Below, piece by piece: positions 1 to 19,210 of a stretch of 64,000 nt of DNA. Positions within the stretch are counted from its first letter, which is position 1, and every line of letters begins with the position of its first letter. This stretch comes from Amphiplicatus sp. Its GTDB lineage: Bacteria > Pseudomonadota > Alphaproteobacteria > Caulobacterales > Parvularculaceae. A program made the translations under genes and the position numbers. The notes under the pieces were generated by a model. That model was not told where the DNA came from and did not search any database. It was given only the letters and a program-made list of their open reading frames with translations. The stretch is from contig JAVJPA010000175.1 in assembly GCA_040216495.1 (NCBI GenBank), positions 7,333 to 71,332 of the forward strand. The letters are read 5' to 3'.

Positions 1-2
1 GC

Positions 3-1061
3 CTTTCCGGCGAAGTGATCGCGTTCGAGCCGAGCCGGCGAGAGTCGTCGACCCTTCAGAGAAACATCGCCGTCAACAAGCTCGCCAATGTAGCAGCGTT
101 TCAGCTCGCTGTCGGCGAAACCGACGGAAAAGGCACGCTGCACATCGCTGAAGACCGATACGACGGACACAACGCCCTTAACGGCCTTTCGTTCCAATCC
201 AAGCCCCCGAACCTCCGTTACACGACCGACCGCACAAACTTTCACTGGACCTCGTTCAACGGACAACGCGCGATAATCGATATCGGCGAAACCGACCAAT
301 TGGAGTTGCTGATCTACAGCGACTCGCCGTTCGAGTTCGACTTGCTCGGCGTTAGCGTTGACGCTGGCGAAGCGCGCCTCTCGCCATGGGCTGTCGATTC
401 GACCGGAGAAACGCCTGCAAGGACGCCGGCAGGGCTCGATTTTAGCGCATCGAACGCATTGATGACGACTTATGGCGGACTGAGTTTGCAGGAAGCCGGC
501 GGCGGCTTGCGCGTCATCGCGCCCGAACGATCAGGCGTCGCTTTCCGTTGGCGCATCGCGCCCAAGGCGCCGGTCAGGATCCTTGTAGACGGCAGGCTGC
601 CGTCCGACGCGCCCATCGAAAAACAGTCCGTCGAAATCGTCTCGCTCGACAGCTTCCTCGCCGGTCGGCCGCTCAAGTCGGTCGATGTGATCAAGCTCGA
701 CATAGAGGGTCACGAACTGCCGGCGCTCCTCGGCGCAAAAGGACTGATCGACAAATACAAGCCGCTGCTGATGATCGAGGTTGTGAACGATCTCGTCGCC
801 GGCAAAGGCGGCGCGCTTGAAGAGCTGTCGACTTTTCTGTCGAGCCGCGGCTACGCCTGCTTCGACGTCGTCAAAGGCAAGCCGCGCCCCGTCGACATCG
901 CTGGCGAGCACGGCTCGAACGTCATCGCCGCGCCGGAGCGTTTTCTTGACGCTGTGCTCACACTTGGCGGCCTTACGCGCGCAGACATGGCGACTGATAA
1001 GGCCGCCGGTTCTACGGCGCCGCAATCCAATAAGTCGAATCAGGTTCGCAAGAGCGCCTGA
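3..1061 (+). CDS. FkbM-family SAM-dependent methyltransferase, 5'-truncated by the window edge, with a ~140-aa insertion
   Basis: Motifs IAFEP..N...N..V....AVG and V.IVSLD....VDVIKLDIEGHE..L.GA; the frame is open from base 3. Confidence 0.85.
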   Translation, partial: LSGEVIAFEPSRRESSTLQRNIAVNKLANVAAFQLAVGETDGKGTLHIAEDRYDGHNALNGLSFQSKPPNLRYTTDRTNFHWTSFNGQRAIIDIGETDQLELLIYSDSPFEFDLLGVSVDAGEARLSPWAVDSTGETPARTPAGLDFSASNALMTTYGGLSLQEAGGGLRVIAPERSGVAFRWRIAPKAPVRILVDGRLPSDAPIEKQSVEIVSLDSFLAGRPLKSVDVIKLDIEGHELPALLGAKGLIDKYKPLLMIEVVNDLVAGKGGALEELSTFLSSRGYACFDVVKGKPRPVDIAGEHGSNVIAAPERFLDAVLTLGGLTRADMATDKAAGSTAPQSNKSNQVRKSA

Positions 1062-1253
1062 CCAGGGCGAATCAGCTCCATTCGACCGGCCGCAGCGCGG
1101 GAAATCCCCCCATTCCGGGGCTTGCCTAAAGACCTTTCTCGTTCCACCCGTTTATGGTTACAGAAGAGCCCGAACGCGCCGGGTCGTACCGGCCGCCTAG
1201 GGCGAAATCCGATCAAGCGGACTCCGGCTGGTCGACGATTTCGTCCTAAAACC

Positions 1254-1259
1254 TATAAT
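1254..1259 (+). promoter_or_regulatory. Possible sigma70 -10 hexamer upstream of the asnB-asnB-GT-GT operon
   Basis: Perfect TATAAT in a high-GC intergenic region about 60 nt upstream of the ATG at 1319; no convincing -35. Confidence 0.35.
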
Positions 1260-1318
1260 TGAGCAAGCGCCGCGCGCCGACGCGCGGAACTTGCTCCAGC
1301 AGCAAAGAGAGCGGCTTC

Positions 1319-3316
1319 ATGTGCGGCATTGTCGGGGCGTATCACCCAACTCGCGACGGCGGCGCGGTCTCGCTCGATATTCTGGCGCGGATGCGCGACG
1401 CCATGGCCCATCGCGGCCCTGACGGAGTCGGCGAATGGCGCTCGGAGAACGGGCGCTGCTCCTTCGGCCACCGACGGCTCTCGATTATCGACCTGTCGAC
1501 CGACGCCAACCAGCCGATGCTGAGCGCCGACGGCAAGATCGCCGTCGTCTTCAACGGCGAGATCTACAATCACGCCGACATCAGAAAAGAACTCGAAGCG
1601 CTCGGCAAATATCAATTCCGCACCGACCATTCGGACACGGAAGTGCTGCTCTACGCCTACGCAGAATGGGGCAAGGCGTTCGTGCACAAGATGTACGGCA
1701 TGTTCGCCATCGCCATCTACGACGCGCGCGACGCCGGCAACCCCGTCATGCACTTCATCCGCGACCGGATCGGCGTCAAGCCGCTGTATTTCACGCGCAC
1801 CCGGAAAGGCGAGTGGCTGTTCGCTTCCGAGATCAAGGCGATCCTCGAACATCCCGACGTTCCGCGCGAGATGGACCCGCTCGCCTTCAATCACTATCTG
1901 TCTTTCATCGTCGCGCCGGCGCCGATGACCATGTTCAAGGGGATTTTCAAGCTCCCCGCCGGCTACTGGGCGACGATTCATCCGAACGGACGCGCGGGCG
2001 CCGAACAATACTGGAACTGCGCGCCCGACGCCGCCGATCTCTATACGGAGAAAGAACTTCCGTTCGACGACGCCGTCGAGGAGCTGACGCGGCTTTTAAA
2101 GCTCGCCGTGAAGCGCCGCATGGTCTCCGACGTGCCGTTCGGCGCGTTGCTATCCGGCGGCGTCGATTCGAGCATTAACGTCGCGCTGATGGCCGAGCTG
2201 ATGGACCGGCCGGTGACGACCTTCACGGTCGGCTATGAAAGCTACGGCGAATTCAACGAATACGACTACGCCAAGCGCGTCGTCGACCGCTACAAGACCG
2301 ACCATCACGAGACGCGCATCGATTCGCGCGAGGCGCTGAACTTCCTGCCGAAGCTCGTTCAGTATCAGGACGAGCCGATCGCCGACAATGTCTGCATCCC
2401 GCTGTATTTCCTAGCCCGCCTTGTAAAACAGGCCGGCACGACGGTCGTGCAGGTCGGCGAAGGCGCCGACGAGAACTTCCTCGGCTACTGGTGGTGCGAC
2501 CATTACCGGAACAAGGCCGAGACGATCTACGATCCGATGCGCAAGGGCGCGCGCAATTCGCATTTCAACGCGCTGCTCGCCCGCCGCGACGGAACGACCG
2601 AGGATCAGGAGATCGCCGAACGCGCCCGGCGCGGCAAGGAGCTCTTCTGGGGCGGCGCGGCCTGCTGGTGGGGCGGCATGCGCGAGATGCTCACTCCCGA
2701 CCTCAAGGCGTTCGACTTCCGCGTCGACTGCCCGATAGAGGGCCTGATGCCGGAGTCGCACCAGTCGACCGACAGCCACGCCATTGTCGCTGAATATCTG
2801 GGACCGCTCGCCGGCAAGCTGAACGACCCGGAAGTGCTGCAGAAAATTCCGTATATGGAATTGAAACTGCGCCTGCCTGAACACCTGCTGATGCGCGTCG
2901 ACAAGATGACCATGGCGCATTCGGTCGAGGCGCGCGTGCCGTTTCTCGACCACGATGTCGTGGAGTTCGCCCGGCGCTGCCCTGCGGACTACAAACTGAA
3001 AGACGGCGTCGGCAAGAAGATCCTCAAGAAGGCCGCCGAACCCTATGTGGACGAGGATATGCTGTACCGGCGCAAACAGGGCTTCGGCGCGCCGATCGAC
3101 CGCTGGTTCCAGGAGCGCGAGTTCGGCCCCAAGACCCTGTCGCTTTTCAACCGGTCGGAGATCAAGAAGGCCGGCTATTTCGACAACCGCTATGTCGAGG
3201 ATCTCCTGAAAGCGCAAATCTCCGGCAAGTCGAATTACGGCTTCCACCTTTGGACCGTGCTCAATGCAGTGCTGTGGCATGAGCACTGGATCGGCGGGGG
3301 ACTCGCCGATTTCTAG
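1319..3316 (+). CDS. asnB: Asparagine synthase (glutamine-hydrolysing)-like amidotransferase 1
   Basis: N-terminal MCGI (Ntn Cys2), HRGPD, GHRRLSIIDL, FNGEIYN, DRIGVKPLY, LSGGVDSS, GEGADE, RVDKMTMAHSVEARVPFLD; start moved to the ATG at 1319. Confidence 0.93.
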   Translation: MCGIVGAYHPTRDGGAVSLDILARMRDAMAHRGPDGVGEWRSENGRCSFGHRRLSIIDLSTDANQPMLSADGKIAVVFNGEIYNHADIRKELEALGKYQFRTDHSDTEVLLYAYAEWGKAFVHKMYGMFAIAIYDARDAGNPVMHFIRDRIGVKPLYFTRTRKGEWLFASEIKAILEHPDVPREMDPLAFNHYLSFIVAPAPMTMFKGIFKLPAGYWATIHPNGRAGAEQYWNCAPDAADLYTEKELPFDDAVEELTRLLKLAVKRRMVSDVPFGALLSGGVDSSINVALMAELMDRPVTTFTVGYESYGEFNEYDYAKRVVDRYKTDHHETRIDSREALNFLPKLVQYQDEPIADNVCIPLYFLARLVKQAGTTVVQVGEGADENFLGYWWCDHYRNKAETIYDPMRKGARNSHFNALLARRDGTTEDQEIAERARRGKELFWGGAACWWGGMREMLTPDLKAFDFRVDCPIEGLMPESHQSTDSHAIVAEYLGPLAGKLNDPEVLQKIPYMELKLRLPEHLLMRVDKMTMAHSVEARVPFLDHDVVEFARRCPADYKLKDGVGKKILKKAAEPYVDEDMLYRRKQGFGAPIDRWFQEREFGPKTLSLFNRSEIKKAGYFDNRYVEDLLKAQISGKSNYGFHLWTVLNAVLWHEHWIGGGLADF

Positions 3317-3331
3317 CGCGCGGACAATCCG

Positions 3332-5284
3332 ATGTGCGGCGTAGTCGCGATCTTCAAGCGGCGCGGGGGAAAGCCCCTTCCCTCGCTTGAGGCCGTCGAC
3401 GCAATGACGACGGCGCTCGCCCACCGCGGGCCTGACGCGGCGGCGCGCGGCTATTACGGCGAGGGGCGCATCGCTTTCGGCCACCGGCGCCTTTCCATCG
3501 TCAATCTCGGCGAAGACGCCGACCAGCCGATGAGCGATGCGGCGGGCCGCGTCACGCTCGTCTTCAACGGCGAGATTTACAATCACCGCGCTCTGCGCCG
3601 CGAGCTCGAGGCGGAAGGACGCATCTTCCGCACCCGGAACTCCGACACGGAAGTCATTGTCGAGGGCTATCTCGCCTGGGGCTGGGAAAAGCTCCTGAAC
3701 CGGCTGTACGGCATGTTCGCCATCGTCCTGTGGGACGACCGCGAACGGCGTCTCTACGCCGTGCGCGACCGGCTCGGGATCAAGCCGCTTTACTACGCCG
3801 AGATAGACGGACAGCTTGTTTTCGCCTCCGAGATCAAGGCGATCGCAAAGCATCCGGGCTTTTCCGCGCGCATGAACGATGCGGCGTTCTTCGACATTCT
3901 GAACGTGCTGGCGACGCCGGCGCCGCAAACGCTGTTCGACGGCGTCTTCAAGCTCGGCCTCGGCGAAACGCTCGTCGCCGGCGAGGACGGCGACATCGTC
4001 AAGCGCCGCTTCTGGTCGCTTCCCGCCGCGCCCGGAGCGGCGCCGAAAAGCCGCGCCGAAGCGGTCGAGCGCATCCGGGAGCTGGCGCAGGGCGCGGTGA
4101 AGGCGCGCCTTGTCGAGGAAGTGGAGGCAGGCGTTTTTCTTTCGGGCGGCGTCGATTCGAGCTTCGTGCTCGGCGCGGCGGCGAACGCGGGCGCCCGGCT
4201 CAAAGCGTTCACCGCCGGCTATGTGGGCGATCCGCTCAACGAGGCCGAACCCGCCGCCGAGATCGCAAAGCATTTCGGCTGCGAGCACCACGTCATCGAG
4301 GTCGAAGAGACGAAGGCGATGGCGGCGACCCTGCGGCTGATGGCCGACATGGACGAGCCGATCGCCGACTGGGCGTGCATTCCGTTGCAGTTCCTCAGCG
4401 CCGCGATGCGCGAGATGGGGATCAAGGTCGGCCTTGTCGGCGAAGGCGCCGACGAATTGTTCTGCGGCTATGACGCCTGGCGCGATTTCATCCATGAAGA
4501 CGGGCGCTGGCGGGCGCTCGCGAAGGGCGGCGACGGCGCCGGTTTTCTCGCCGATCTCGTCGCCAGAATGGCGCCCGCCTCGCGCTTCGGCCTCGCCGGC
4601 GCCGCCGACATGGCGGGGCAAGTCGCCCGCGGGCGCGGGCGCTTCCGTTCCGGCGCGGAATCGATGCGGCCTATTCAAGCGGCGCGGCTATTGAAGCAGG
4701 ACTGGCGCGCGCGCGCGCCGGTGCGCGATCCTGCGTCAAAGGAGCTTTTCGAACCGGATCTTGCGCTGCGCCTCGCCGCTGCTTCCGGCGCGTGGCCTGA
4801 CAGCGCCGCGACGCCGGCGGAGATATTCCGCAACCTGAGACGGCGCGATCTCGGCTTCCGCCTGCCGGAGCTTCTTCTCATGCGCGTCGACAAGGTGACG
4901 ATGGGCTCGTCCATCGAGGCGCGCGTTCCGTTTCTCGATCACTATCTCGTCGAGTATGTAATGAGCTTGCCCGAAGACATCGTGCTCGAAGGCGGCGGCT
5001 CGAAACCGCTCCTGAAAGAGGCGGTGTCCGCCATCCTTCCGCCCTCGGTGCTGCAAAGAAAGAAGATCGGTCTCGGCGCGCCGATGGCGAAATGGCTGCG
5101 CGGCGATTTCGGGAATGAAGTGCGCGCGCTGATCGACGACGAACTCGCCGACAAGGAAACGCCGTTCGACGCGGCGCGCGTCGCGGCGCTGTACGACCGC
5201 CACCGCGCGGGCGAGCGCGACTATTCCTCCTATATCTGGCCGGTGGTGAACATTGCGCTGTGGCGCAGGAAGTGGCTCGCGTGA
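3332..5284 (+). CDS. asnB: Asparagine synthase (glutamine-hydrolysing)-like amidotransferase 2
   Basis: MCGV, HRGPD, GHRRLSIV, FNGEIYN, DRLGIKPLYY, LSGGVDSS, GEGADELFCGY, RVDKVTMGSSIEARVPFLD. Confidence 0.93.
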   Translation: MCGVVAIFKRRGGKPLPSLEAVDAMTTALAHRGPDAAARGYYGEGRIAFGHRRLSIVNLGEDADQPMSDAAGRVTLVFNGEIYNHRALRRELEAEGRIFRTRNSDTEVIVEGYLAWGWEKLLNRLYGMFAIVLWDDRERRLYAVRDRLGIKPLYYAEIDGQLVFASEIKAIAKHPGFSARMNDAAFFDILNVLATPAPQTLFDGVFKLGLGETLVAGEDGDIVKRRFWSLPAAPGAAPKSRAEAVERIRELAQGAVKARLVEEVEAGVFLSGGVDSSFVLGAAANAGARLKAFTAGYVGDPLNEAEPAAEIAKHFGCEHHVIEVEETKAMAATLRLMADMDEPIADWACIPLQFLSAAMREMGIKVGLVGEGADELFCGYDAWRDFIHEDGRWRALAKGGDGAGFLADLVARMAPASRFGLAGAADMAGQVARGRGRFRSGAESMRPIQAARLLKQDWRARAPVRDPASKELFEPDLALRLAAASGAWPDSAATPAEIFRNLRRRDLGFRLPELLLMRVDKVTMGSSIEARVPFLDHYLVEYVMSLPEDIVLEGGGSKPLLKEAVSAILPPSVLQRKKIGLGAPMAKWLRGDFGNEVRALIDDELADKETPFDAARVAALYDRHRAGERDYSSYIWPVVNIALWRRKWLA

Positions 5285-6876
5285 GCGGGAAGAAACTTGA
5301 ACTCGTGCTCGCCCTCGACGGGCGCAGCATTCCGCCCGAGGGTTGGACGCGGGCGCTGTTTCAGGACGCGCTGAAAGAGCTGAAAGCATTTCGCGGGCTA
5401 GCGGGTTGGCGCGCCGTGCGTCTTGTCGTCGACAATCCAAAAGCTGTGCCGCAGCCGGCCAAGACGGCGCTGGCGCTTCTCCTTCTCTCGCCTTCGAGCG
5501 CCGAAATCGTTTCCGCCAATGGCGAAATCCGACGTCGCATAACTTTCGCTGACATTTTCAGCGAGGCTGTCGACGGCGCGCGCTCCAGGGATGCGCACCT
5601 GAAGGCGATGAAGGAGCTTTTCGCCTGGCTCGACGCCTCGCCGGTCCGGCAGGAGAGCTATGCGCCCGCCGCGGGCGCGCCGATGGCGCTGCGTACAGGC
5701 CTCTGGTTCGGCGCCAAGGTCGGCGGCGCGTTTTCTCATGCGGCCGGCATTATCAATGCGATCCACGATGTTTTCGGCGCGGTCGATCTTCTCGCGACGG
5801 ACAGCGTGCCTTGTCTCAGGCCGGAAATCGTCTCCAAGCGCATCGATCTTGCGCAGGTAAAAGGCTGGAACACTGGCGTCGGGGTTCATTTCGCCGCCAA
5901 TGACGGACTTCTGGCCGAGGCTGAACGCCTTTCCGCGTCGCATGCGCCCGCCTTCATTTATCAGCGCGGCGGACTCGGCGATCTCAGCGGGCTCAGGCTT
6001 GCGCGCCAGTATCGCCGGCCTTTCGTACTTGAGTATAACGGGCCGGAAGTCTGGGTCGCCGACAATTGGGGCGACGGCATTCCTTACAAGGAAGAATTCC
6101 AGCGCGTCGAGACCGAACTGCTGCGCCGCGCAGATATCGTTCTCGCGGTGAGCGCGCCGCTGGTCGAGGACGCGGTCAACCGCGGGGCCGACGCGAGCCG
6201 GGTTCTACTTTCGCCCAACGCCGTCGATCCCGAGCGGTTCAATCCTGATATAGACGGCGCGACGGCGCAGGCTAAATACGGGTTCGGCGCGCGCCGCGCC
6301 GCCCTCCTTCTCTCCAGTTTCGGGCCGTGGCACGGCGTTGAGAAAGCGGTCGAGGCTTACGCGGCGCTGCTGAAACGGCGGCCGGAACTCGCCGCCGAAA
6401 CGACGCTCGTCCTCGCAGGCCACGGGCAAGGCCACGCCGCTGCGCAAAAGCAGGCGCAGGCTGCCGGGCTCAGGGCGGGCGAAACCGTCATCTTCACCTC
6501 CGTCATCCCCTCGGAAGAAGCGCCGGCGCTGATGGCGGCGTCGGAAATCCTGCTTTCTCCGCAAACGGAGAACCCGGACGGCAGCGTCTTCTTCGGCTCG
6601 CCGACCAAGATATTCGAGTATATGGCGATGGCCCGTCCGATCATCGCCAGCCGTCTCGCCCAGATCGGCGAAGTGCTGGAGCACGAAAGGACGGCGCTGC
6701 TGGTTCCGCCCGGCGACGCGCAAGCGCTCAGCGCCGCGCTTGAGCGCGCCTTCACGCAGCCTGAAAGCGTCGCCGCTTTCGGCCCCGCGGCGCGCGCCGA
6801 GGCGATCCGCGCTCATAGCTGGACGGCGCGCATCGAAGAATTGCGCGCGGGGCTTGCGCGCCTCGGGGCGCTGTAG
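5281..6876 (+). CDS. GT4 (GT-B) glycosyltransferase with N-terminal extension
   Basis: FGSPTKIFEYMAMARPIIASRLAQIGEVL, NAVDPERF, WHGVEK; GTG start overlaps the asnB stop (GTGA). Confidence 0.88.
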   Translation: MSGKKLELVLALDGRSIPPEGWTRALFQDALKELKAFRGLAGWRAVRLVVDNPKAVPQPAKTALALLLLSPSSAEIVSANGEIRRRITFADIFSEAVDGARSRDAHLKAMKELFAWLDASPVRQESYAPAAGAPMALRTGLWFGAKVGGAFSHAAGIINAIHDVFGAVDLLATDSVPCLRPEIVSKRIDLAQVKGWNTGVGVHFAANDGLLAEAERLSASHAPAFIYQRGGLGDLSGLRLARQYRRPFVLEYNGPEVWVADNWGDGIPYKEEFQRVETELLRRADIVLAVSAPLVEDAVNRGADASRVLLSPNAVDPERFNPDIDGATAQAKYGFGARRAALLLSSFGPWHGVEKAVEAYAALLKRRPELAAETTLVLAGHGQGHAAAQKQAQAAGLRAGETVIFTSVIPSEEAPALMAASEILLSPQTENPDGSVFFGSPTKIFEYMAMARPIIASRLAQIGEVLEHERTALLVPPGDAQALSAALERAFTQPESVAAFGPAARAEAIRAHSWTARIEELRAGLARLGAL

Positions 6877-8043
6877 ATGGCGAAGGGGTCGATCCTCATC
6901 GTCACCCGGCATTATCCGCCGGCGATCTCAGGCGGCGCGCGCCGTCCTTCCCTTCTCGCCGCCGGTCTGCGCGAACGCGGATGGACAGTGACCGTCGCCA
7001 GCCCGCAGGCGCCCGAAGGCGAGATAGGCTGGATCAAGACCCCTCACCCCGCCGGCGCGCGCGGCGAAGCGGCCGCAGCAGCAGGACCCGCTGCGCCGTC
7101 GCTGTTTGAAAAGATCAAATCCATCGCCCGCCGCTGGCTCTACTGGCCCGACGCCGACATGCGCTGGGCGCTCGCCGCCGCAGAGGCCGTGAAACGCGCA
7201 GGCGCAGCGCCTGACTGGATCGTGACGACGAGCCCGCCCGAGTCCGCGCACCTCGCCGGCCGCCTTATCCGGAAACAGACCGGCGCGCGCTGGCTCGCGG
7301 AAATGCGCGATAGCTGGATCGACGATCCGCTCCGGGAGGAATTGCGCGATTCAGCCTTGCGCCGGACGATAGAACGCCGCATGGCGCGCGCGCTTTTATC
7401 GAAAGCCGATCATATCGTCGCTGTCTCCGACGCCATCGCAGCGGAGGTTGAAGCCTTACGTCTTCGTCCCGCGCCGCCCGTCGCGACGATCGGCCATTTC
7501 GCCAGAGACTCCGCTGACGGGGAGCGATATGTTTTCGCGGGGCCCGGCCCGCATTTCGTCCACACCGGCCAGTTCTCGCTTTCACACGCCGAGCGCCGCC
7601 TCGACTTGCTGCTCGAAGGGTTCGCGCCTGTGGCTCGCGCCCTGCCGGAAGCAAGACTGCATCTGATCGGCCGCCTGACGCCGGAAGAACAGGCGCGGGC
7701 GAGCTCTTCGCCGCTCGCCGCGCAGATTGTCCGTCACGGCAATCTCCCCTATGCGCAAACGCTCGCCATGCAACAATCCGCAGACGGACTGATCCTGTTC
7801 CAGCAGGGAACGGCGGCGCTGCCGGGCAAGCTCAGCGAGTATCTGTTGATGACGGCTCCGATCCTTGTCGTCGGCGACGGCCCGTGGCGGGCGCGCCTTA
7901 CGGATATCTCTCACTGGCCGTTGGAGCGCGCGCAAGAAGCGCTGGCCGCACCGCGCCGCGCGCCGACGGATCATATGACTGCGGCGCTTGACCGCTACGA
8001 GGCGATTTTCGTCTCCGCTCTCCAAAAACCTAATGAGCGCTAG
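6877..8043 (+). CDS. GT4-like glycosyltransferase
   Basis: HYPPAISGGARR, YWPDADMRW, TTSPPESAHL, EMRDSW, LPGKLSEYL; starts immediately after the previous stop. Confidence 0.85.
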   Translation: MAKGSILIVTRHYPPAISGGARRPSLLAAGLRERGWTVTVASPQAPEGEIGWIKTPHPAGARGEAAAAAGPAAPSLFEKIKSIARRWLYWPDADMRWALAAAEAVKRAGAAPDWIVTTSPPESAHLAGRLIRKQTGARWLAEMRDSWIDDPLREELRDSALRRTIERRMARALLSKADHIVAVSDAIAAEVEALRLRPAPPVATIGHFARDSADGERYVFAGPGPHFVHTGQFSLSHAERRLDLLLEGFAPVARALPEARLHLIGRLTPEEQARASSSPLAAQIVRHGNLPYAQTLAMQQSADGLILFQQGTAALPGKLSEYLLMTAPILVVGDGPWRARLTDISHWPLERAQEALAAPRRAPTDHMTAALDRYEAIFVSALQKPNER

Positions 8044-9827
8044 TTGAGCATATCTTCGGGTGACGGCGACCCGGGCACATCGACGAAAGGCACGTCATAT
8101 TCTTTCAGCTTCATGACGAAGGCTTTGGTTTCCGGCGTCACGCGGCCGCCAGCTACGCTGAAAGTGCCGCGCAGCATCAGCGTGCGGAGCGCGTCGCCGT
8201 CTGGCGCAATCCCGTTGCGGGCCAAGCGCTCTCCCCACATCTGCGCGTAATTCTCAAGCCCGAATACCGGATACTCGCAGTGAACGGTGCCCCCGGATTT
8301 GTCATCCACGCAATTTCTGAGAAGCCCTCGCGTCAGTCCGTGTGCGACTTTTTTTTCATTTATCTTCGCAATGAATTGCCGGCCCGTCATGTCAACGGGA
8401 ACGAAATCAGCGGGTGAACCGTTGAGATAATCGAAAATATCCATCGGCTGCGTTGAGTCTTTCTTGGCCAGATACCCGCCGAACGTCGCGTCCATGAGGT
8501 AAAACTCGCCGTTCATGGGAACGATGGTCGTAACATGAGTGAGGTCGTCTTTCAGAACGCCGAAATTCCAGGTGAACGCGTCGATACCCTGATCGGCGAG
8601 CAGCCGTCGGAAGAACACCGACGTGCCGCCACAAAAGCCGCCGCCCTGATTCAAGTCATAATACCTGAAATAAATTTTATGCAGCTCCGCGCTGGATGGC
8701 CTGAATTCCGCATTGACGCTTCGCGTAAGGGCAAAATCGATATTCTTTGACGCCCACTGAAGAAGCTGCAACGCTCTCTCGAACTTCGTTGCGTTGACAT
8801 CTGCTTGCGGCAGCAGCTCTTCGAACTCTTCGCGCGTACGACACCGCCAATTGTCACTGGCGCATGCCGACACCGATTCAAGTTTTACAGAAAACCGGTC
8901 GTCTGAGCCGGCGAAGAACAGCGCCTCGTCGCCTGGCTCCAGCACAACGTGCCGACGCTCCATCGGAAGATAGGCGAGCCCTTGCTTGTTTCGGCGCGAT
9001 AGCGACACCCCTTGCGGAGGCATTCGGTCAAAGATGATCGCGACGCGCCTTGCCTCCTTCGCCGGCGCAAGCCCGAGCCTTACGCCGAACTCGCCTTCGA
9101 AACCCTCGCGGCGCGAGACGTCTATGCGGCCGCTTTTCTCCGCCACCGAGATATCGGCGCCGTTGTACGCCGTCGCGCTTAACGCTGGCGCGGACTTTGT
9201 GAGACGAATCGGGCGAACGACTGAGCCGTCCGCTTCGCAGATCAGCGCTATACCATCGCAAGGCTCAACGCCGACGATCCGAATCGACGCCGCATCATAC
9301 CCTTGCGAATAGATCAGCGCGGAGGACATTTCCGATAAATTGAGGATTACATGCTGACGCGCTGTAGACGAACTGTAGCGCCTATCCCCGTCGCCGTCTT
9401 CGCGAATATTGAACGGCGCGCTTGCGTCGAGATCGAAAAACACGGCGACCCTGCCTGCGCGTTTGCTTTTAGGGGGGCTGGCTGGCGAAAGTTCGACCCC
9501 TGCTTCCTCCGTTCCCTTTGGCGCGAAGGCGATCACGCCTTCCGCTGCCTCGGAAAGAGCCGCTCTGAAAGGACGGAGCGAAACGCCTGCGCGAACGACG
9601 GCGTCGCTGACAGCCTCGTCCCTGGCGGGGATCGGCGCTTTGGTGTCGCTCAAGACGAGGACCGTCGTTGCCAAGGCGGCTACAGCGAGGATTGCCCCGA
9701 GCATGAAAAGATGCGGTGACTTCCGGTTCAAGGTCGCACTCCCGCCTGCAGGACCGGCTTTTCGGCCTGCGGCTCCCTGCCGTATTGGCGAACGCCCGCC
9801 ATTGTCATTTGCGAGCATGGCTCGCAT
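8040..9827 (-). CDS. Membrane-anchored protein with two tandem unknown domains and a C-terminal transglutaminase/arylamine-N-acetyltransferase-like (Cys-His-Asp) domain
   Basis: Hydrophobic segment at aa 41-59; GGGFC(399)GGTSVFFRRLL..QGI, LTH(431)VTTIV, YLMD(446)ATFGG. Confidence 0.7.
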   Translation of the reverse strand: MRAMLANDNGGRSPIRQGAAGRKAGPAGGSATLNRKSPHLFMLGAILAVAALATTVLVLSDTKAPIPARDEAVSDAVVRAGVSLRPFRAALSEAAEGVIAFAPKGTEEAGVELSPASPPKSKRAGRVAVFFDLDASAPFNIREDGDGDRRYSSSTARQHVILNLSEMSSALIYSQGYDAASIRIVGVEPCDGIALICEADGSVVRPIRLTKSAPALSATAYNGADISVAEKSGRIDVSRREGFEGEFGVRLGLAPAKEARRVAIIFDRMPPQGVSLSRRNKQGLAYLPMERRHVVLEPGDEALFFAGSDDRFSVKLESVSACASDNWRCRTREEFEELLPQADVNATKFERALQLLQWASKNIDFALTRSVNAEFRPSSAELHKIYFRYYDLNQGGGFCGGTSVFFRRLLADQGIDAFTWNFGVLKDDLTHVTTIVPMNGEFYLMDATFGGYLAKKDSTQPMDIFDYLNGSPADFVPVDMTGRQFIAKINEKKVAHGLTRGLLRNCVDDKSGGTVHCEYPVFGLENYAQMWGERLARNGIAPDGDALRTLMLRGTFSVAGGRVTPETKAFVMKLKEYDVPFVDVPGSPSPEDMLN

Positions 9828-9972
9828 GCACGCCCGTGCACCCAGCGCACCTTACTGGCTCGAGGGAGCGAGGCAACCCTGACTTTCCCTGCGCGCGCCG
9901 GCGCATTTCTCCTCTCAGGGCGGTGCGCTATGTATGCCCTTTAAATTGAATCGAATCAGAACGGTCCGCACC

Positions 9973-11118
9973 ATGACTGACGACGCCGCTAAACAAGCCG
10001 CCCTCGCCGCCCGCGCGCATGACTGGCTGTTCGGCGCGTGCCTTCCTTTCTGGGCGGCGCGCGGCGTCGATCCGCGCGGCGGCTTCGTCGAGCGGCTGAC
10101 GCTCGACGGCGCGCCGCTCCGCGACGAGACCAGCCGGGTGCGCGTGCAGGCCCGGCAAACTTATGTCTTCGCGCAAGCCGCGCTGATGGGCTGGCGCAAG
10201 GACCGCGCCTGCGCGCTCGCGGCCCTCGGCGTCGAAACCCTGCTCGGCCGCTGCCGCCGAGACGATCTGCTGTTCGGCAAGACCATGCGGCCCGGAGAGG
10301 GGCTCGCCGACGATCAGCCGGACCTTTACGATAACGCCTTCTGCCTGATGGCGCTCGCCTTCGCCGCGAGGGCGCTCGGCGACATGTCGCTTCTCGCCGA
10401 GGCCGGCCGCACGCTCGCCGCCCTCGACGAAAAGCTCGCCCATCCGGCCGGCGGCTACCATGAAACGCTTCCGCCCACTCTTCCGCGCCGCCAGAATCCG
10501 CACATGCACCTGTTTGAGGCCGTGCTCGCGTTGCATGCCGCCAGCGGCGAGGCCCGCTATCTGGAACGGGCCGACGCGCTCGCCCGCCTCGCCGGCGACA
10601 GGTTTATCGATTCCGCCGGCGCGCTGCGTGAGTATTACGCCGGCGACTGGTCGCCGGCCCCCGGCGCGAAAGGCGAGCTGATCGAGCCGGGGCATCTGTT
10701 TGAATGGACCTGGCTGCTCAGCGTTCACGCCAGGGCAAAAGGCGAAGAGCCGCCGGCCGCCGCGGGACTCCTTTACACGGCGGGGCTTCCTTTCCTCAAC
10801 GCGCGCGGCCTTGCGCCGCAGGAAGCGAACATCCGTGGTCGGATTATCGACGGGAGCCGGCGCTGCTGGCAGCAGACCGAAGCGCTGAAAGCGCATATCG
10901 TCATGAGCGAAGCGGGCGACGGCGACGCGCGCGGGCGCGCGGCGCTCTGTCTGTCGAGCTTCTTCGAGGACTATCTCTCCGGCGTTCCCGATGGCGGCTG
11001 GCGCGATCATTTCAGCGCGGAGGGCGCGCCGCTGGCGACGGACATGCCGGCGAGCACCGGCTATCATGTGGTGCTGGCGTTTTCGGAATTTATCCGGGCC
11101 TTCGGCGCAGGGCGTTGA
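9973..11118 (+). CDS. AGE-family (GlcNAc 2-epimerase fold) epimerase/isomerase, possibly mannose-6-phosphate isomerase
   Basis: RVRVQARQTYVFA, DLYDNAF, RQNPHMHLFEA, EPGHLFEWTWL, RCWQQTEALKA, PASTGYH. Confidence 0.88.
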   Translation: MTDDAAKQAALAARAHDWLFGACLPFWAARGVDPRGGFVERLTLDGAPLRDETSRVRVQARQTYVFAQAALMGWRKDRACALAALGVETLLGRCRRDDLLFGKTMRPGEGLADDQPDLYDNAFCLMALAFAARALGDMSLLAEAGRTLAALDEKLAHPAGGYHETLPPTLPRRQNPHMHLFEAVLALHAASGEARYLERADALARLAGDRFIDSAGALREYYAGDWSPAPGAKGELIEPGHLFEWTWLLSVHARAKGEEPPAAAGLLYTAGLPFLNARGLAPQEANIRGRIIDGSRRCWQQTEALKAHIVMSEAGDGDARGRAALCLSSFFEDYLSGVPDGGWRDHFSAEGAPLATDMPASTGYHVVLAFSEFIRAFGAGR

Positions 11119-11130
11119 GGCGGCCTGCGC

Positions 11131-11157
11131 ATTACATTTTTGTAATTTATGCATAAC
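11131..11157. promoter_or_regulatory. Two adjacent AT-rich palindromes (candidate operators) upstream of the DUF2793 gene
   Basis: ATTACA-TTTT-TGTAAT (11131-11146) immediately followed by TTATGCATAA (11147-11156). Confidence 0.45.
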
Positions 11158-11248
11158 TTATTGTTTTTCATCGGCAAATAAAACTTATCCCCGCCCTTTC
11201 AGGCGGGCTTACGCTGCTGGCGTTGAGTTTAACGAGAGCAGTTGCATC

Positions 11249-12484
11249 ATGAATATGTCTCCCCGCCTGTCCCTTTCCTACCTGTCGCCGCAACAGGCGC
11301 AGAAGCATGTCACGGTCAATGAAAGCCTGCGCCGGCTCGATGCGCTGACGCAGCTCGCGGTCGTCTCGCGCAGCCAGACCGCAGAACCCGCCGCGCCGCA
11401 GGAAGGCGACGCCTATATCCTCCCGGCGGCGGCCAGCGGCGGCGCCTGGAGCGCGATGGCGACGGCGTCGATCGCCGCGTTCCAGGACGGCGCCTGGCGC
11501 GAGATCGCGCCCGGCGCGGGTTGGCGCGCCTGGGCGGCCGACGAGGAAACGCTGCTTGTGTTCGACGGCGCGGCATGGACGGCGCTGAGCGCCGGCGGCG
11601 GCGAGCCGTCCATGCTCGGCGTCAACGCCAGCCCGGATGCGACCAACCGTCTTTCGGTGAAGTCCAATGTCGAACTTCTCTCCCATGACGACGTGACGCC
11701 GGGGACGGGCGACGCGCGCAAGATCATCAACCGCGCCGGCTCGGGCGGCGCCGCTTCCGTGGTCTTCCAGACAGGGTTCAGCGGCCAGGCGGAGTTCGGG
11801 CTTATCGGGGACGACCGTTTCCGGCTCAAGGTCAGCGACGACGGCGAGGCCTTTCTCGACGCGCTCATCATCGATACGGCGAGCGGCGATGTGGGCGTCG
11901 GCGCCGCGCCGAAAGCCAAGCTGTTCGTCAAGGGCGACAATCTCAGCGATCCGGGCGTCGGCGACCTGCATATCGAAAAGGACGGTTATTTCGCGCTGTT
12001 TTTCCTCGATACGTATGCGGACGGCGCGGCTTCCTTCTCCATCCAGCGCCGGGCGCGCGGCACGCTGGCCGCGCCGGCGGCGGTGCAGGTAGGCGATAGC
12101 TGCGGCGGCTTTTCCTTCCGCGGCTACAATGCGGCGGGCGGGTTCACGCAGGCGGCGATCATCTACGCGCCCGTCGACGGCGCCGTCTCGGGCGCCGCCG
12201 TGCCGACGGCGCTCGCATTCTCCACCGGTTCGGCCTCAGCGGCCGAGCGGATGCGCATAACGTCAGCCGGAGATGTCGGCGTCGGCGTTTCGGCGCCGAC
12301 CACGAAGCTGCATGTGGACGGGCCGGTGCGCTGCAAATCCTACACGGTCGCGGGCGCGCCTTCGGCGGCTTCCGCCGGCGCGGGCTCGATGATCTTCGTG
12401 AGCAACGAAAGCGGCGGGGCGACGCTGGCTTTCAGCGACGGCGCCAACTGGCGGCGCGTCGCCGATCGGGCGGTGATTTCATGA
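11249..12484 (+). CDS. DUF2793 protein, GTA/phage tail-fibre-like
   Basis: SPRLSLSYLSPQQAQKHVTVNESLRRLDAL, GDAYIL, AFQDGAWREIAPGAGWRAW, FQTGFSGQAEFGLIGDDRFRLKVSDDG, two GDVGVG..P..KL.V.G repeats. Confidence 0.85.
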   Translation: MNMSPRLSLSYLSPQQAQKHVTVNESLRRLDALTQLAVVSRSQTAEPAAPQEGDAYILPAAASGGAWSAMATASIAAFQDGAWREIAPGAGWRAWAADEETLLVFDGAAWTALSAGGGEPSMLGVNASPDATNRLSVKSNVELLSHDDVTPGTGDARKIINRAGSGGAASVVFQTGFSGQAEFGLIGDDRFRLKVSDDGEAFLDALIIDTASGDVGVGAAPKAKLFVKGDNLSDPGVGDLHIEKDGYFALFFLDTYADGAASFSIQRRARGTLAAPAAVQVGDSCGGFSFRGYNAAGGFTQAAIIYAPVDGAVSGAAVPTALAFSTGSASAAERMRITSAGDVGVGVSAPTTKLHVDGPVRCKSYTVAGAPSAASAGAGSMIFVSNESGGATLAFSDGANWRRVADRAVIS

Positions 12485-12506
12485 CGGCGCCGCTTCCGCC
12501 CGCAAC

Positions 12507-12542
12507 CCAAAAAACAAGGCCGCGCATGTGCGCGGCCTTGTT
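12507..12542 (-). terminator. Intrinsic terminator between the convergent DUF2793 and PEP-CTERM-like genes
   Basis: 13-bp stem AACAAGGCCGCGC/GCGCGGCCTTGTT with a T-run on the minus strand. Confidence 0.75.
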
Positions 12543-12567
12543 GAGACGATTGCAGCCGGGCGAAAGA

Positions 12568-13275
12568 TCAGGCTTCAGCCTTTTTAGCGCGGCGGCGCAA
12601 GAAGCCGCCCGCCGCGATCGCCGAAGCGAAGAGCACGTAGGCGCCGGGGATGGGGTTTTGCAAAACCGGTCCCGGAACAAGGCCAAGCTCTTCGGCGGTC
12701 ATAAAAATATTGTCGAAATTGATCTGCACCGACGGCCCGCCGGCGGCGACCCGGAAGAAGACGCCAAGCTGCTGGCCGGCGTAGGCCTGGGTCAGCAGAG
12801 CGTCGATCAGGAGGGTCTGCACGTTCCACTGGCCGAGGCCGGGATCGCTGAGATTGAGCGTCGCGATGACATTGTCGAGCGTGCCGGCGAACACGCCCAT
12901 CTCGCCGTTAAACAGGCTGCGGTCGGCGCGATGGCCGATCAGCGCCGACAGCGAAAGGTCTGCGTCGCCGGTAATGGTGTAGTTGAGCGTCTGATAGGCG
13001 ACGCCGCCATTGCTCACATAACCGAACCGGGAGCCGGCCTCGCCGGGGATGGCCGCATAGGCGGGATTGCCGCCGACCCCGGCCCAGGTGCCGGCGTAGC
13101 CGCTGGACTGCCAGCCCGCGAAACCGGCGCCGAAGTAACCATATTCCGTTCCGCCCGAAGGCAGGGCGTAGGCGTCTTCGAAATTGGCGTTTGCAACAGA
13201 AATGGCGCCCGCAGAAGCGGCGGTCGCGCCAAGGGCGAAAAACCCAATCAGAGCGGCGGTTACAAGACGATACAT
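12568..13275 (-). CDS. Secreted protein with a PEP-CTERM/VPLPA-CTERM-like sorting signal (NPIPGA variant)
   Basis: Signal peptide MYRLVTAALIGFFALGATAASA; C-terminus NPIPGA + hydrophobic helix + LRRRAKK. Confidence 0.8.
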   Translation of the reverse strand: MYRLVTAALIGFFALGATAASAGAISVANANFEDAYALPSGGTEYGYFGAGFAGWQSSGYAGTWAGVGGNPAYAAIPGEAGSRFGYVSNGGVAYQTLNYTITGDADLSLSALIGHRADRSLFNGEMGVFAGTLDNVIATLNLSDPGLGQWNVQTLLIDALLTQAYAGQQLGVFFRVAAGGPSVQINFDNIFMTAEELGLVPGPVLQNPIPGAYVLFASAIAAGGFLRRRAKKAEA

Positions 13276-14469: not shown

Positions 14470-14584
14470 GGTCGGGGCGGCCTTTGCGCAAGCGGCTTGG
14501 CGGATGGCGTTCGGGGCGCGGCGGGAGTAACAGCATTCCCGGTTCAAGGCCAGCAAGCGGGCCAAGCAACAGGAGAAGCAGGTT

Positions 14585-19126: not shown

Positions 19127-19210
19127 GCGCCTCCATTTTCACAACCGGACGAAAGAAACCGGGGCCAAAAAGGACGCTAGGCGCAAACAGTGCGCCAACG
19201 GAGTCGGAGC

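What the first reader, a model, noticed from the sequence alone, without database searches (positions are those of the whole stretch)
1..13275. Candidate undescribed glycan-tailoring and cross-linking system (amidotransferases + Cys-His-Asp enzyme + methyltransferase + sorted surface protein)
Seen: within 13 kb lie FkbM, two full AsnB-type amidotransferases, two GT4s, a membrane-anchored protein with a transglutaminase/NAT-like triad, and a PEP-CTERM-like protein; ugd and a uronate epimerase follow. FkbM and the triad protein appear to share an unnamed domain. Established: AsnB homologues in polysaccharide loci amidate uronic acids; transglutaminase-type enzymes exchange the NH2 of a carboxamide for an amine; FkbM enzymes in such loci are generally taken to O-methylate sugars. 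Inference: the cytoplasmic enzymes build a methylated uronamide glycan, and the periplasm-facing triad protein uses those amides (or acyl donors) to add amines or amino acids, or to cross-link glycan to surface proteins. I know of no named pathway with this combination.
Basis: partly seen in the sequence, partly recalled or inferred. Interest (0 to 1): 0.75.

Follow-up and report, generated by a model that had tools for sequence, protein, structure and literature searches.

The report
Uronamide glycan locus with periplasmic amidase-like enzyme
This is a surface-polysaccharide gene cluster of an uncultured alphaproteobacterium, exported by an ABC transporter; it pairs two sugar-amidating enzymes with an unannotated periplasmic Cys-His-Asp enzyme that most likely edits those sugar amides after export, as WbmE does in Bordetella.

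Summary
The listed genes are real: FkbM methyltransferase (cut by the window start), two intact AsnB-type amidotransferases, two GT4s, a membrane-anchored Cys-His-Asp protein, then GT2, an SDR epimerase, ManC and Ugd.

The core module (FkbM with insert, triad protein, two GT4s, two AsnBs) recurs in five divergent metagenomic loci where the triad protein is only 30-34% identical. AsnB genes lie beside triad-family genes in 8 of 10 independent loci; chance gives about 4%.

C399/H431/D446 are invariant in about 150 family representatives. The fold is transglutaminase/NAT-like at clan level only, and Pfam does not really model the family.

The combination is not unprecedented. The Bordetella wbm O-antigen locus has AsnB-type genes, ABC-transporter export and WbmE, a periplasmic transglutaminase-superfamily uronamide deamidase. 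The best reading is a WbmE-like enzyme that edits glycan amides after export.

Cross-linking to a sorted protein is not supported: the PEP-CTERM-like gene is not conserved, and the exosortases lie elsewhere. The shared FkbM/triad domain is weakly suggested, not proven. I rate it a new variant of a known kind, of moderate interest.

The parts
1..1061 (+). 3' two-thirds of the FkbM/RfbT-like methyltransferase. The whole gene is about 484 aa and starts about 390 bp before the window. It carries a ~145-aa insert between the two halves of the FkbM domain.
   Evidence: PF05050 and TIGR01444. The insert is conserved in 8 orthologues. In 400 other genomes of the class, FkbM matches never cover the insert.
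1319..3316 (+). AsnB1, a glutamine-dependent amidotransferase (665 aa from the MCG start). It is the most conserved gene of the module: 79% identity in loci where the triad protein is 33-38%.
   Evidence: PF00733, GATase_7, TIGR01536. MCGIVG and SGGVDSS motifs. Orthologue identities.
3332..5284 (+). AsnB2, a second glutamine-dependent amidotransferase (650 aa), 37% identical to AsnB1.
5260..6876 (+). GT4 glycosyltransferase with an N-terminal extension of about 190 aa.
   Evidence: Glyco_trans_1_4, Glycos_transf_1, Glyco_trans_4_4. Orthologues are 53-56% identical.
6877..8043 (+). Second GT4 glycosyltransferase (388 aa).
   Evidence: Glyco_trans_4_4, Glyco_transf_4. Orthologues are 52-54% identical.
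8043..8837 (-). Catalytic domain of the triad protein (residues 331-595) with C399, H431 and D446. Transglutaminase/NAT-like fold.
   Evidence: Triad invariant in about 150 representatives. AlphaFold2 pLDDT 91. Foldseek hits to TglA, GdmF, NATs, protein glutaminase and LapG. DUF553 and NAT weak hits.
8838..9608 (-). Two tandem beta-sandwich repeats of the triad protein (residues 74-198 and 212-330), each ending in a conserved CX6C. Probably glycan-binding modules.
   Evidence: hhalign repeat 1 against repeat 2: probability 99%, E 2e-18. AlphaFold2 all-beta, pLDDT 80-90. Invariant Cys pairs. The domain also occurs as stand-alone proteins in L011 and L024.
9648..9827 (-). Basic N-terminal tail and a single membrane anchor (residues 38-56) of the triad protein.
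   Evidence: Translation. Hydrophobicity scan. Distant orthologues have a lipobox instead.
9934..11118 (+). AGE-family (GlcNAc 2-epimerase-like) epimerase/isomerase. An accessory gene, absent from this position in several related loci.
   Evidence: PF07221, E 6e-57. Synteny.
11249..12484 (+). DUF2793 phage/GTA tail-fibre-like protein. A recurrent neighbour of the module.
   Evidence: PF10983. PHROG tail-fibre families. Present in L003, L004, L010, L020, L022 and L024.
12568..13275 (-). Secreted HpiC1-like beta-sandwich protein with a divergent VPLPA/PEP-CTERM-like tail. Found only in the close relatives.
   Evidence: PF22825. No sorting-signal model hit. Tail compared with 18 genomic VPLPA-CTERM tails. 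Synteny.
13429..14565 (-). GT2 glycosyltransferase, conserved in L011, L020 and L024 at 42-45% identity.
   Evidence: PF00535
14585..15589 (+). NAD-dependent SDR epimerase, compatible with a UDP-uronate 4-epimerase.
   Evidence: PF01370; TviC-type hit below cut-off
16550..17605 (-). ManC, mannose-1-phosphate guanylyltransferase.
   Evidence: PF00483, PF22640
17779..19083 (+). Ugd, a UDP-glucose 6-dehydrogenase family enzyme that supplies the uronic acid.
   Evidence: PF03721, PF00984, PF03720

Best explanation
The window holds the right half of a surface-polysaccharide locus of about 26 kb (O-antigen-like or capsular) that uses the ABC-transporter-dependent pathway.

Proposed steps; all are inferred, and only the gene content and the conserved linkage are shown:
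1. In the cytoplasm, Ugd and an SDR epimerase supply UDP-uronic acids, and ManC supplies GDP-mannose.
2. A GT2 and two GT4s build the chain.
3. Two glutamine-dependent AsnB-type amidotransferases convert uronate C6 carboxylates to primary amides (uronamides).
4. The insert-bearing FkbM/RfbT-like enzyme and a 565-aa class-I methyltransferase methylate the glycan, probably capping its end.
5. Wzm/Wzt, just upstream of the window, export the finished polymer.
6. In the periplasm, the membrane-anchored 595-aa protein holds the polymer with two tandem beta-sandwich modules.
7. Its Cys399-His431-Asp446 triad attacks the sugar carboxamide, forming a uronyl-thioester and releasing ammonia.
8. Water then resolves the thioester, giving partial deamidation that tunes surface charge. 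This is what WbmE does in Bordetella bronchiseptica.
For: Shown:
- Gene content by Pfam/NCBIfam.
- Wzm, Wzt (ABC plus Wzt_C, 30.0 bits) and a heparinase II/III-like gene lie directly upstream. They are conserved next to the module in two other genomes at 57-89% identity.
- Both AsnBs have an intact MCG nucleophile and PP-loop.
- The core module (FkbM with insert, triad protein, two GT4s, two AsnBs) is conserved in L008, L009, L011, L020 and L024, where the triad protein is only 30-34% identical.
- More distant family members also sit by AsnB genes. L022 has two AsnBs. In L051 the triad gene overlaps the end of an AsnB1 orthologue by 4 bp.
- Overall, 8 of 10 independent loci have an AsnB within 10 kb. 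The expectation is about 4%, from 6 AsnB-family genes in 3.3 Mb.
- The triad is invariant in about 150 representatives that are at most 50% identical to each other.
- The catalytic-domain model (pLDDT 91) matches only transglutaminase/NAT-clan enzymes that make or break amides through an acyl-cysteine. These include a protein glutaminase, which is a carboxamide hydrolase.
- Location outside the cytoplasm: a basic tail plus one transmembrane segment in this protein, lipoboxes in distant orthologues, and three conserved Cys pairs.

Precedent:
- WbmE is periplasmic and belongs to the papain-like transglutaminase superfamily, with triad C165/H201/D216. It deamidates uronamide O-chains after ABC-transporter export, in a locus with three AsnB-type genes (PMC2615507).
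- A WbpS-type AsnB is genetically needed for HexNAcAN (PMC6025236).
Against: - No biochemical data exist for any member of this family.
- Homology to WbmE itself could not be tested because its sequence was not on hand. The family's weak hits are to DUF553 and NAT rather than to Transglut_core, so it may only be analogous.
- Foldseek TM-scores are low (0.2-0.35), so the structural support is at clan level only.
- About a quarter of the wider family lacks an export signal, and one member is fused to a GT2 without a membrane segment. The family therefore does not act only in the periplasm or only on amides made by AsnB.
- L052 shows no AsnB within 10 kb, and L005 shows none in the 13 kb available.
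- Which sugars are amidated, and whether amidation happens on the nucleotide sugar or on the polymer, is unknown.
- The Wzt_C hit is just under Pfam's cut-off.
Confidence: 0.5

Rival explanations
1. Transamidase or cross-linker. The uronyl-thioester formed from the sugar carboxamide is resolved by an amine instead of water. The amine could be an amino acid, ethanolamine, a polyamine or a protein lysine. The result would be N-substituted uronamides or glycan-protein or glycan-glycan cross-links.
For: - The same linkage and fold evidence as for the best explanation.
- Transglutaminases and NAT-family amide synthases such as GdmF (8btm) transfer acyl groups to amines.
- The genome encodes many VPLPA-CTERM proteins and two exosortases.
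Against: - The only characterised precedent on a glycan, WbmE, hydrolyses.
- The PEP-CTERM-like protein is not conserved with the module, and the exosortases lie on other contigs with their own AsnB.
- No gene that would supply an amine donor is conserved in the module.
Confidence: 0.12
2. Periplasmic acyl transferase or esterase on the glycan, working like a NAT. The triad carries an acetyl or other acyl group as a thioester and moves or removes O- or N-acyl groups on the exported polymer. It would not depend on the AsnB-made amides.
For: - NATs dominate the Foldseek list, and 3 of 88 family members hit PF00797.
- MBOAT or Acyl_transf_3 genes sit beside the triad gene in L011, L024 and L005.
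- A cytoplasmic GT2-fused member exists, where acyl-CoA would be available.
Against: - There is no acyl-CoA in the periplasm.
- MBOAT or acyltransferase neighbours are absent from the window, L008, L009, L020 and L022, whereas AsnB is present in 8 of 10 loci.
- The 803-804-aa MBOAT proteins are long enough to carry a periplasmic transferase domain of their own; this is inferred from their length only.
Confidence: 0.15
3. Cysteine peptidase acting on a protein or on peptidoglycan, like LapG or PeiW. It would be co-located with the glycan genes only because both serve the cell surface.
For: - LapG, vasohibin and a putative cysteine protease (3isr) are among the Foldseek hits.
- The first characterised microbial members of the transglutaminase-like superfamily were peptidases.
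- L053 has a PG_binding_1 neighbour.
Against: - There is tight, sometimes overlapping, linkage to AsnB and GT4 genes across deep divergence, and a fusion to GT2.
- No conserved candidate protein substrate exists in the module. DUF2793 is made in the cytoplasm if it is a GTA fibre.
Confidence: 0.1

Closest known systems
Bordetella bronchiseptica wbm O-antigen locus with WbmE (King et al. 2009, PMC2615507)
   Same: - Glycan rich in uronic acid and uronamide, exported by the ABC-transporter-dependent route.
- Several AsnB-type glutamine amidotransferases in the locus.
[quoted passage not shown]
   Different: - WbmE is a soluble periplasmic protein with a cleaved signal peptide, with its triad at residues 165-216. 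The protein here is anchored (or a lipoprotein in its relatives), 595 aa long, and has two N-terminal beta-sandwich repeats.
- WbmE was assigned to smart00460/PF01841. This family hits only DUF553 and NAT, and weakly.
- Direct homology to WbmE was not tested.
- The host is an uncultured alphaproteobacterium, not a betaproteobacterial pathogen.
Arylamine N-acetyltransferases and NAT-family amide synthases (PF00797; for example GdmF, 8btm)
   Same: A Cys-His-Asp triad on a helix plus beta-sheet core, an acyl-cysteine intermediate, and amide-bond chemistry. They are the commonest structural neighbours.
   Different: - They are cytoplasmic and depend on acyl-CoA or an acyl carrier.
- TM-scores are only about 0.3.
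- The Pfam NAT score for the window protein is below the cut-off (16.3 against 22.8 bits).
Protein glutaminase and bacterial transglutaminase-like cysteine proteinases (LapG)
   Same: Secreted or periplasmic enzymes of the same clan. Protein glutaminase hydrolyses a carboxamide (Gln to Glu), which is the chemistry proposed here.
   Different: Their substrates are proteins. There is no significant sequence similarity, and the Foldseek E-values are only 5e-3 to 1e-2.
WbpS-type and XrtA/PEP-CTERM-system AsnB amidotransferases (TIGR03108)
   Same: AsnB1 and AsnB2 are full-length glutamine-dependent AsnB homologues in a glycan locus. TIGR03108 is among their best NCBIfam hits.
   Different: - Their scores (493 and 418 bits) are far below the TIGR03108 cut-off of 817.
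- The genome's real exosortase-linked AsnB is on another contig.

Membership tests
Papain-like transglutaminase/NAT superfamily (Peptidase_CA clan) | Cys, then His, then Asp in that order. The Cys lies at the N-terminus of a helix, and the His and Asp lie on neighbouring beta-strands. | tested here: met
   C399, H431 and D446 are invariant in 149-150 of 150 aligned representatives. In the pLDDT-91 model the Cys (domain residue 69) starts helix 69-82, the His (101) lies in strand 99-108 and the Asp (116) in strand 111-116. All informative Foldseek hits belong to this clan.
Pfam DUF553 (PF04473) / Transglut_core (PF01841) / NAT (PF00797) | Score above the family's gathering cut-off. | tested here: inconclusive
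   - DUF553 scores 22.4 bits against a cut-off of 20.5, barely above it (E 9e-5).
- NAT scores 16.3 against 22.8, which is not met.
- PF01841 gives no hit for the window protein and only a 'faint' hit for P0006.
- Of 88 diverse members, 2 hit DUF553 and 3 hit NAT.
WbmE-type periplasmic uronamide deamidase | Exported to the periplasm. | tested here: met
   By prediction only. There is a basic N-terminus and one transmembrane segment at residues 38-56. Orthologues have lipoboxes, and Cys pairs are conserved. Unlike WbmE, the protein is probably anchored rather than cleaved.
WbmE-type periplasmic uronamide deamidase | Encoded in an ABC-transporter-dependent glycan locus together with AsnB-type amidotransferases. 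| tested here: met
   Wzm and Wzt lie upstream and are conserved in relatives. Two AsnB genes are adjacent.
WbmE-type periplasmic uronamide deamidase | Sequence homology to WbmE beyond the shared clan. | not tested
   No WbmE sequence was available in the collections I could still search. The paper gives only the triad positions.
WbmE-type periplasmic uronamide deamidase | Deamidates uronamide residues of the exported polymer. | not testable with these tools
   This needs enzyme assays, or glycan NMR or MS.
Glutamine-dependent AsnB-type amidotransferase | N-terminal Cys nucleophile (MCG), a GATase domain, and the PP-loop SGGxDS in the synthetase domain. | tested here: met
   Both proteins meet all three features.
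XrtA/PEP-CTERM system amidotransferase (TIGR03108) | Score above the NCBIfam cut-off of 816.9 bits. | tested here: not met
   The scores are 492.7 and 418.4 bits.
Wzm/Wzt ABC-transporter-dependent glycan export | An ABC-2 permease plus an ATPase with a C-terminal glycan-binding domain. | tested here: met
   ABC2_membrane, E 2e-9, and ABC_tran, E 8e-21. The Wzt_C hit is 30.0 bits against a cut-off of 30.4, so borderline.
PEP-CTERM / VPLPA-CTERM exosortase substrate (the 12568-13275 protein) | A C-terminal P-x-P motif, a hydrophobic helix and a basic cluster, recognised by a sorting-signal model, with an exosortase in the genome. | tested here: inconclusive
   No NCBIfam model hits it even at E<=10. 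The tail NPIPGAYVLF...RRRAKK fits the pattern shared by 18 VPLPA-type tails in the genome. Two exosortases are present elsewhere.

The most novel reading that the evidence does not exclude
The AsnB enzymes do more than decorate the glycan: they activate it. The primary uronamide would be an exportable acyl donor that needs no ATP. The periplasmic triad enzyme would then exchange NH3 for amines outside the cell, making amino-acid-substituted uronamides or cross-linking the glycan to envelope components. That would explain how amide-linked substituents can be put on uronic acids where no ATP is available.
Probability: 0.12. Interest if true: 0.75.

Novelty: new variant of a known kind. Interest (0 to 1): 0.45.

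Why it matters
- Since 2009, WbmE has been essentially the only described case of O-polysaccharide editing after export by a transglutaminase-type enzyme.
- A Cys-His-Asp family that Pfam does not model, with more than 500 clusters at 50% identity, sits in glycan loci. The subfamily nearest this window is tightly linked to AsnB amidotransferases.
- Editing of glycan amides after export may therefore be more widespread, and more varied in architecture, than one Bordetella enzyme suggests.
- The locus gives a defined six-gene module and a catalytic cysteine for testing this.
- The family deserves a profile model and a name.

Tried and rejected
- BLASTP and whole-protein hhalign of the triad protein against FkbM gave nothing significant. 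Only the repeat-level profile gave a weak signal.
- The PDB sequence search with the family profile found only chance gliomedin hits.
- Foldseek with the whole-protein model returned cupins and vicilins, driven by the two beta-sandwiches. It said nothing about the catalytic domain, so I folded that domain alone.
- The word-based homologue search found only 6 clusters, and searching again with an 88-sequence alignment added one.
The metagenome scan with a narrower alignment returned only contigs of 1.3-3 kb.
- A search of 401 genomes of the same class with the triad profile found only the window's own genome. No enrichment statistic from reference genomes was therefore possible.
- I rejected a protease acting on the DUF2793 protein as the main reading. 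The enzyme is outside the cytoplasm, and a GTA fibre would be assembled inside it.
- I rejected membership of the XrtA/PEP-CTERM EPS system. The NCBIfam cut-offs are not met, and the exosortases with their own AsnB lie on other contigs.

Full report
**What is there**

The window is C175:7333-71332 of a 3.3-Mb, 92%-complete metagenome-assembled genome. Its nearest public relatives are labelled Pseudomonadota and Alphaproteobacteria MAGs.

Pfam and NCBIfam scans confirm these genes in window coordinates:

| Gene | Coordinates | Strand |
|---|---|---|
| FkbM methyltransferase (3' part) | 1-1061 | + |
| AsnB1 | 1319-3316 | + |
| AsnB2 | 3332-5284 | + |
| GT4 | 5260-6876 | + |
| GT4 | 6877-8043 | + |
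| 595-aa triad protein | 8040-9827 | - |
| AGE-family epimerase | 9934-11118 | + |
| DUF2793 protein | 11249-12484 | + |
| HpiC1-like secreted protein | 12568-13275 | - |
| GT2 | 13429-14565 | - |
| SDR epimerase | 14585-15589 | + |
| Purine/MTA phosphorylase-family protein (PNP_UDP_1) | 15586-16476 | + |
| ManC | 16550-17605 | - |
| Ugd | 17779-19083 | + |

Ribosomal protein L21, starting at 19190, ends the locus.

The 7.3 kb of contig upstream of the window (L002) add:
- a heparinase II/III-like protein;
- Wzm, an ABC-2 permease;
- Wzt, an ABC ATPase with a borderline Wzt_C domain;
- a 565-aa class-I methyltransferase;
- the 5' end of the FkbM gene.

The locus is therefore an ABC-transporter-dependent glycan cluster.

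Both AsnBs are intact glutamine amidotransferases, with the MCG nucleophile and the SGGVDSS PP-loop.

**The triad protein**

- It has a basic N-terminus and one hydrophobic segment at residues 38-56.
- Two all-beta repeats follow, at about residues 74-198 and 212-330. They are a true internal duplication: hhalign probability 99%, E 2e-18. Each ends in an invariant CX6C.
- The C-terminal domain of 265 aa carries C399, H431 and D446.
- Distant orthologues replace the anchor with lipoprotein lipoboxes. The bulk of the protein is therefore outside the cytoplasm.
- A full HMMER search of 1.84 billion cluster representatives found 512 relatives at E<=1e-3 and 52 at E<=1e-30.
- The catalytic domain is always C-terminal, behind varied N-terminal parts. 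The triad is conserved in 149-150 of 150 aligned sequences.
- Pfam essentially does not model the family. Of 88 diverse members, 3 hit NAT and 2 hit DUF553.
- An AlphaFold2 model of the catalytic domain alone is confident (pLDDT 91, pTM 0.89).
- Its Foldseek neighbours are all enzymes of the transglutaminase/NAT/papain-like clan that work through an acyl-cysteine. They include TglA, the amide synthase GdmF, many NATs, a protein glutaminase, LapG, vasohibin and a TGase.
- TM-scores are only 0.2-0.35. Membership is shown at clan level, and the family is distinct.

**Is the grouping real?**

Word-based searching finds only six clusters of full-length relatives in 5.8 billion sequences. Among 401 genomes of the same class, only the window's own genome has one.

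The loci I recovered with at least 8 kb of context were:

| Locus | Triad-family member | AsnB nearby | Other conserved neighbours |
|---|---|---|---|
| L003, L004, L010 | 79-84% identical | two | fully syntenic |
| L008, L009, L011, L020 | 30-34% identical | two | FkbM with insert, two GT4s |
| L024 | a 545-aa full-length orthologue (catalytic domain 38% identical) plus P0030, a ~425-aa second paralogue | two | FkbM with insert, two GT4s |
| L022 | 398 aa | two | GT4s, DUF2793 |
| L051 | catalytic domain 26% identical | an AsnB1 orthologue (62%) overlapped by 4 bp | GT2, GNAT, DegT, methyltransferase |
| L005 | 37% identical | none in the 13 kb available | heparinase II/III-like (73% identical), Ugd-like, GT4 |
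| L052 | cytoplasmic GT2 fusion | none within 10 kb | GT2s, methyltransferases |

- In the five divergent module loci, the 540-aa methyltransferase, GT2 and DUF2793 usually accompany the module.
- Counting the three close relatives with the window as one locus, 8 of 10 independent loci have an AsnB within 10 kb. The own genome has six Asn_synthase-family genes in 3.3 Mb, so a random 20-kb window would hold one about 4% of the time.
- Wzm, Wzt and the heparinase-like gene are also conserved next to the module in two other genomes.
- Genes that supply uronic acids accompany the module: Ugd here, and WecB-like, UDP-sugar dehydrogenase or WbpB-like genes elsewhere.
- Within the module the triad protein evolves fastest. 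Orthologue identities are 24-40% for the triad protein, 79% for AsnB1, 58-60% for AsnB2 and 52-56% for the GT4s. This fits an exposed, extracytoplasmic protein.

**The shared-domain claim**

- BLASTP gives E 0.7, and whole-protein profile comparison gives probability 4.7%. Neither supports the claim.
- With repeat-level profiles, repeat 1 matches the first part of the FkbM insert at probability 68%, E 4.7e-5, over 52 columns. The shared motif is NLR..Y.S...ILG...LIYS..F.I.
- This is suggestive, not proof.
- Independent support for a link: the insert-bearing FkbM is as rare as the triad protein. In 400 other genomes of the class, 117 have FkbM matches, and none covers the insert. The two proteins co-occur in all five divergent module loci.

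**Comparison with what is known**

- In Bordetella bronchiseptica the O-chain is made by the ABC-transporter-dependent route.
- The wbm locus encodes three glutamine-dependent amidotransferase-family proteins (wbmC, wbmI, wbmZ), proposed to make the uronamide.
[quoted passage not shown] It deamidates uronamide residues of the completed, exported O-chain (PMC2615507).
- AsnB-type WbpS is genetically required for HexNAcAN in Helicobacter pullorum (PMC6025236).
- The present locus has the same logic, and the triad spacing is similar (32 and 15 residues, against 36 and 15).
- It differs in four ways: the enzyme is anchored; it carries two beta-sandwich repeats; it belongs to a family closer to DUF553 and NAT than to Transglut_core; and homology to WbmE itself was not tested.

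**Mechanism proposed**

Shown: the gene content, the conserved linkage, the invariant triad, the clan-level fold and the predicted topology.

Inferred:
1. Uronic acids are amidated in the cytoplasm by the two AsnBs.
2. The chain is built by GT2 and the two GT4s, and methylated by FkbM and the class-I methyltransferase, probably as a terminal cap read by Wzt.
3. It is exported by Wzm/Wzt.
4. The anchored enzyme then binds the polymer through its repeats and attacks sugar carboxamides with Cys399, releasing ammonia.
5. Hydrolysis of the thioester gives the free acid.

I put about 0.5 on this whole chain. That breaks down as about 0.9 that this is such a glycan locus, about 0.55-0.6 that the enzyme acts on the glycan's amides, and about 0.4 that the outcome is hydrolysis.

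Rivals:
- transamidation or cross-linking, 0.12;
- NAT-like acyl transfer or esterase action on the glycan, 0.15;
- a peptidase with a protein or murein substrate, 0.10.

**The sorted surface protein**

- The 235-aa HpiC1-like protein has a signal peptide and the tail NPIPGAYVLF...RRRAKK.
- No sorting-signal model recognises the tail. It does resemble 18 VPLPA-CTERM-type tails in this genome, and two exosortases exist on other contigs. One of these has its own AsnB beside it.
- The protein is found only in the close relatives of the locus, not in the divergent ones.
- It is therefore not part of the conserved module, and I see no evidence that the triad enzyme acts on it.

**Verdict**

The interpretation needs correcting: the combination has a known counterpart in the Bordetella wbm locus with WbmE. 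The most economical function is WbmE-like editing of uronamides after export, not a new cross-linking system.

What is new:
- the enzyme family, which has no profile model and is large;
- its architecture;
- the tight six-gene module in uncultured Alphaproteobacteria.

I rate it a new variant of a known kind, with interest 0.45.

Noticed in passing
window 1-600 and 8101-8700, compared with L003 and L010: The window and L003 are about 99% identical in DNA across 17 kb, except for two patches. One is the FkbM N-terminal and insert region (67% or unalignable). The other is the catalytic core of the triad gene (65-69%). In 8101-8400 the window is instead 91% identical to L010, against a background of about 83%.
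   Followed up: partly
window 11249-12484; L003, L004, L010, L020, L022, L024: The DUF2793 tail-fibre-like gene is a recurrent neighbour of the module, 59-64% identical in divergent loci. It hits PHROG tail-fibre families. The genome has a GTA g15-like GTA_TIM gene on contig C297. In Rhodobacter capsulatus the DUF2793 GTA fibre gene rcc00171 also lies next to EPS genes (PMC5026251). The glycan may be the fibre's receptor.
   Followed up: partly
L009 3954-5225; L024 9670-10947 and 4370-5254; L011 6317-7219: Some related loci carry extra paralogues. One is a second catalytic protein of about 425 aa with one beta-sandwich. Another is a stand-alone protein of about 295 aa made only of the beta-sandwich domain.
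   Followed up: partly
L052 10001-11839 (P0102): One family member is a GT2 glycosyltransferase fused to the triad domain, with no membrane segment. About a quarter of complete family members lack an N-terminal hydrophobic segment. Part of the family is therefore probably cytoplasmic.
   Followed up: no
G000 C210:950-3596 and C361:590-1354: Two exosortase (EpsH) genes lie on other contigs. The one on C210 is followed by an AsnB-family gene, the classic XrtA/PEP-CTERM arrangement, separate from this locus. At least 18 ORFs in the genome end in VPLPA-CTERM-type tails.
   Followed up: partly
L002 411-2483 (upstream of the window); L005, L058, L059: A heparinase II/III-like protein next to Wzm/Wzt is among the best conserved genes of the extended locus (70-88% identity; 73% in L005). 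It may be a lyase or a polymer-level epimerase acting on a uronic-acid polymer. Its function is untested.
   Followed up: no
L022 13021-15963: In the locus of the 398-aa family member, a 980-aa radical SAM/SPASM protein lies between the two AsnB genes.
   Followed up: no
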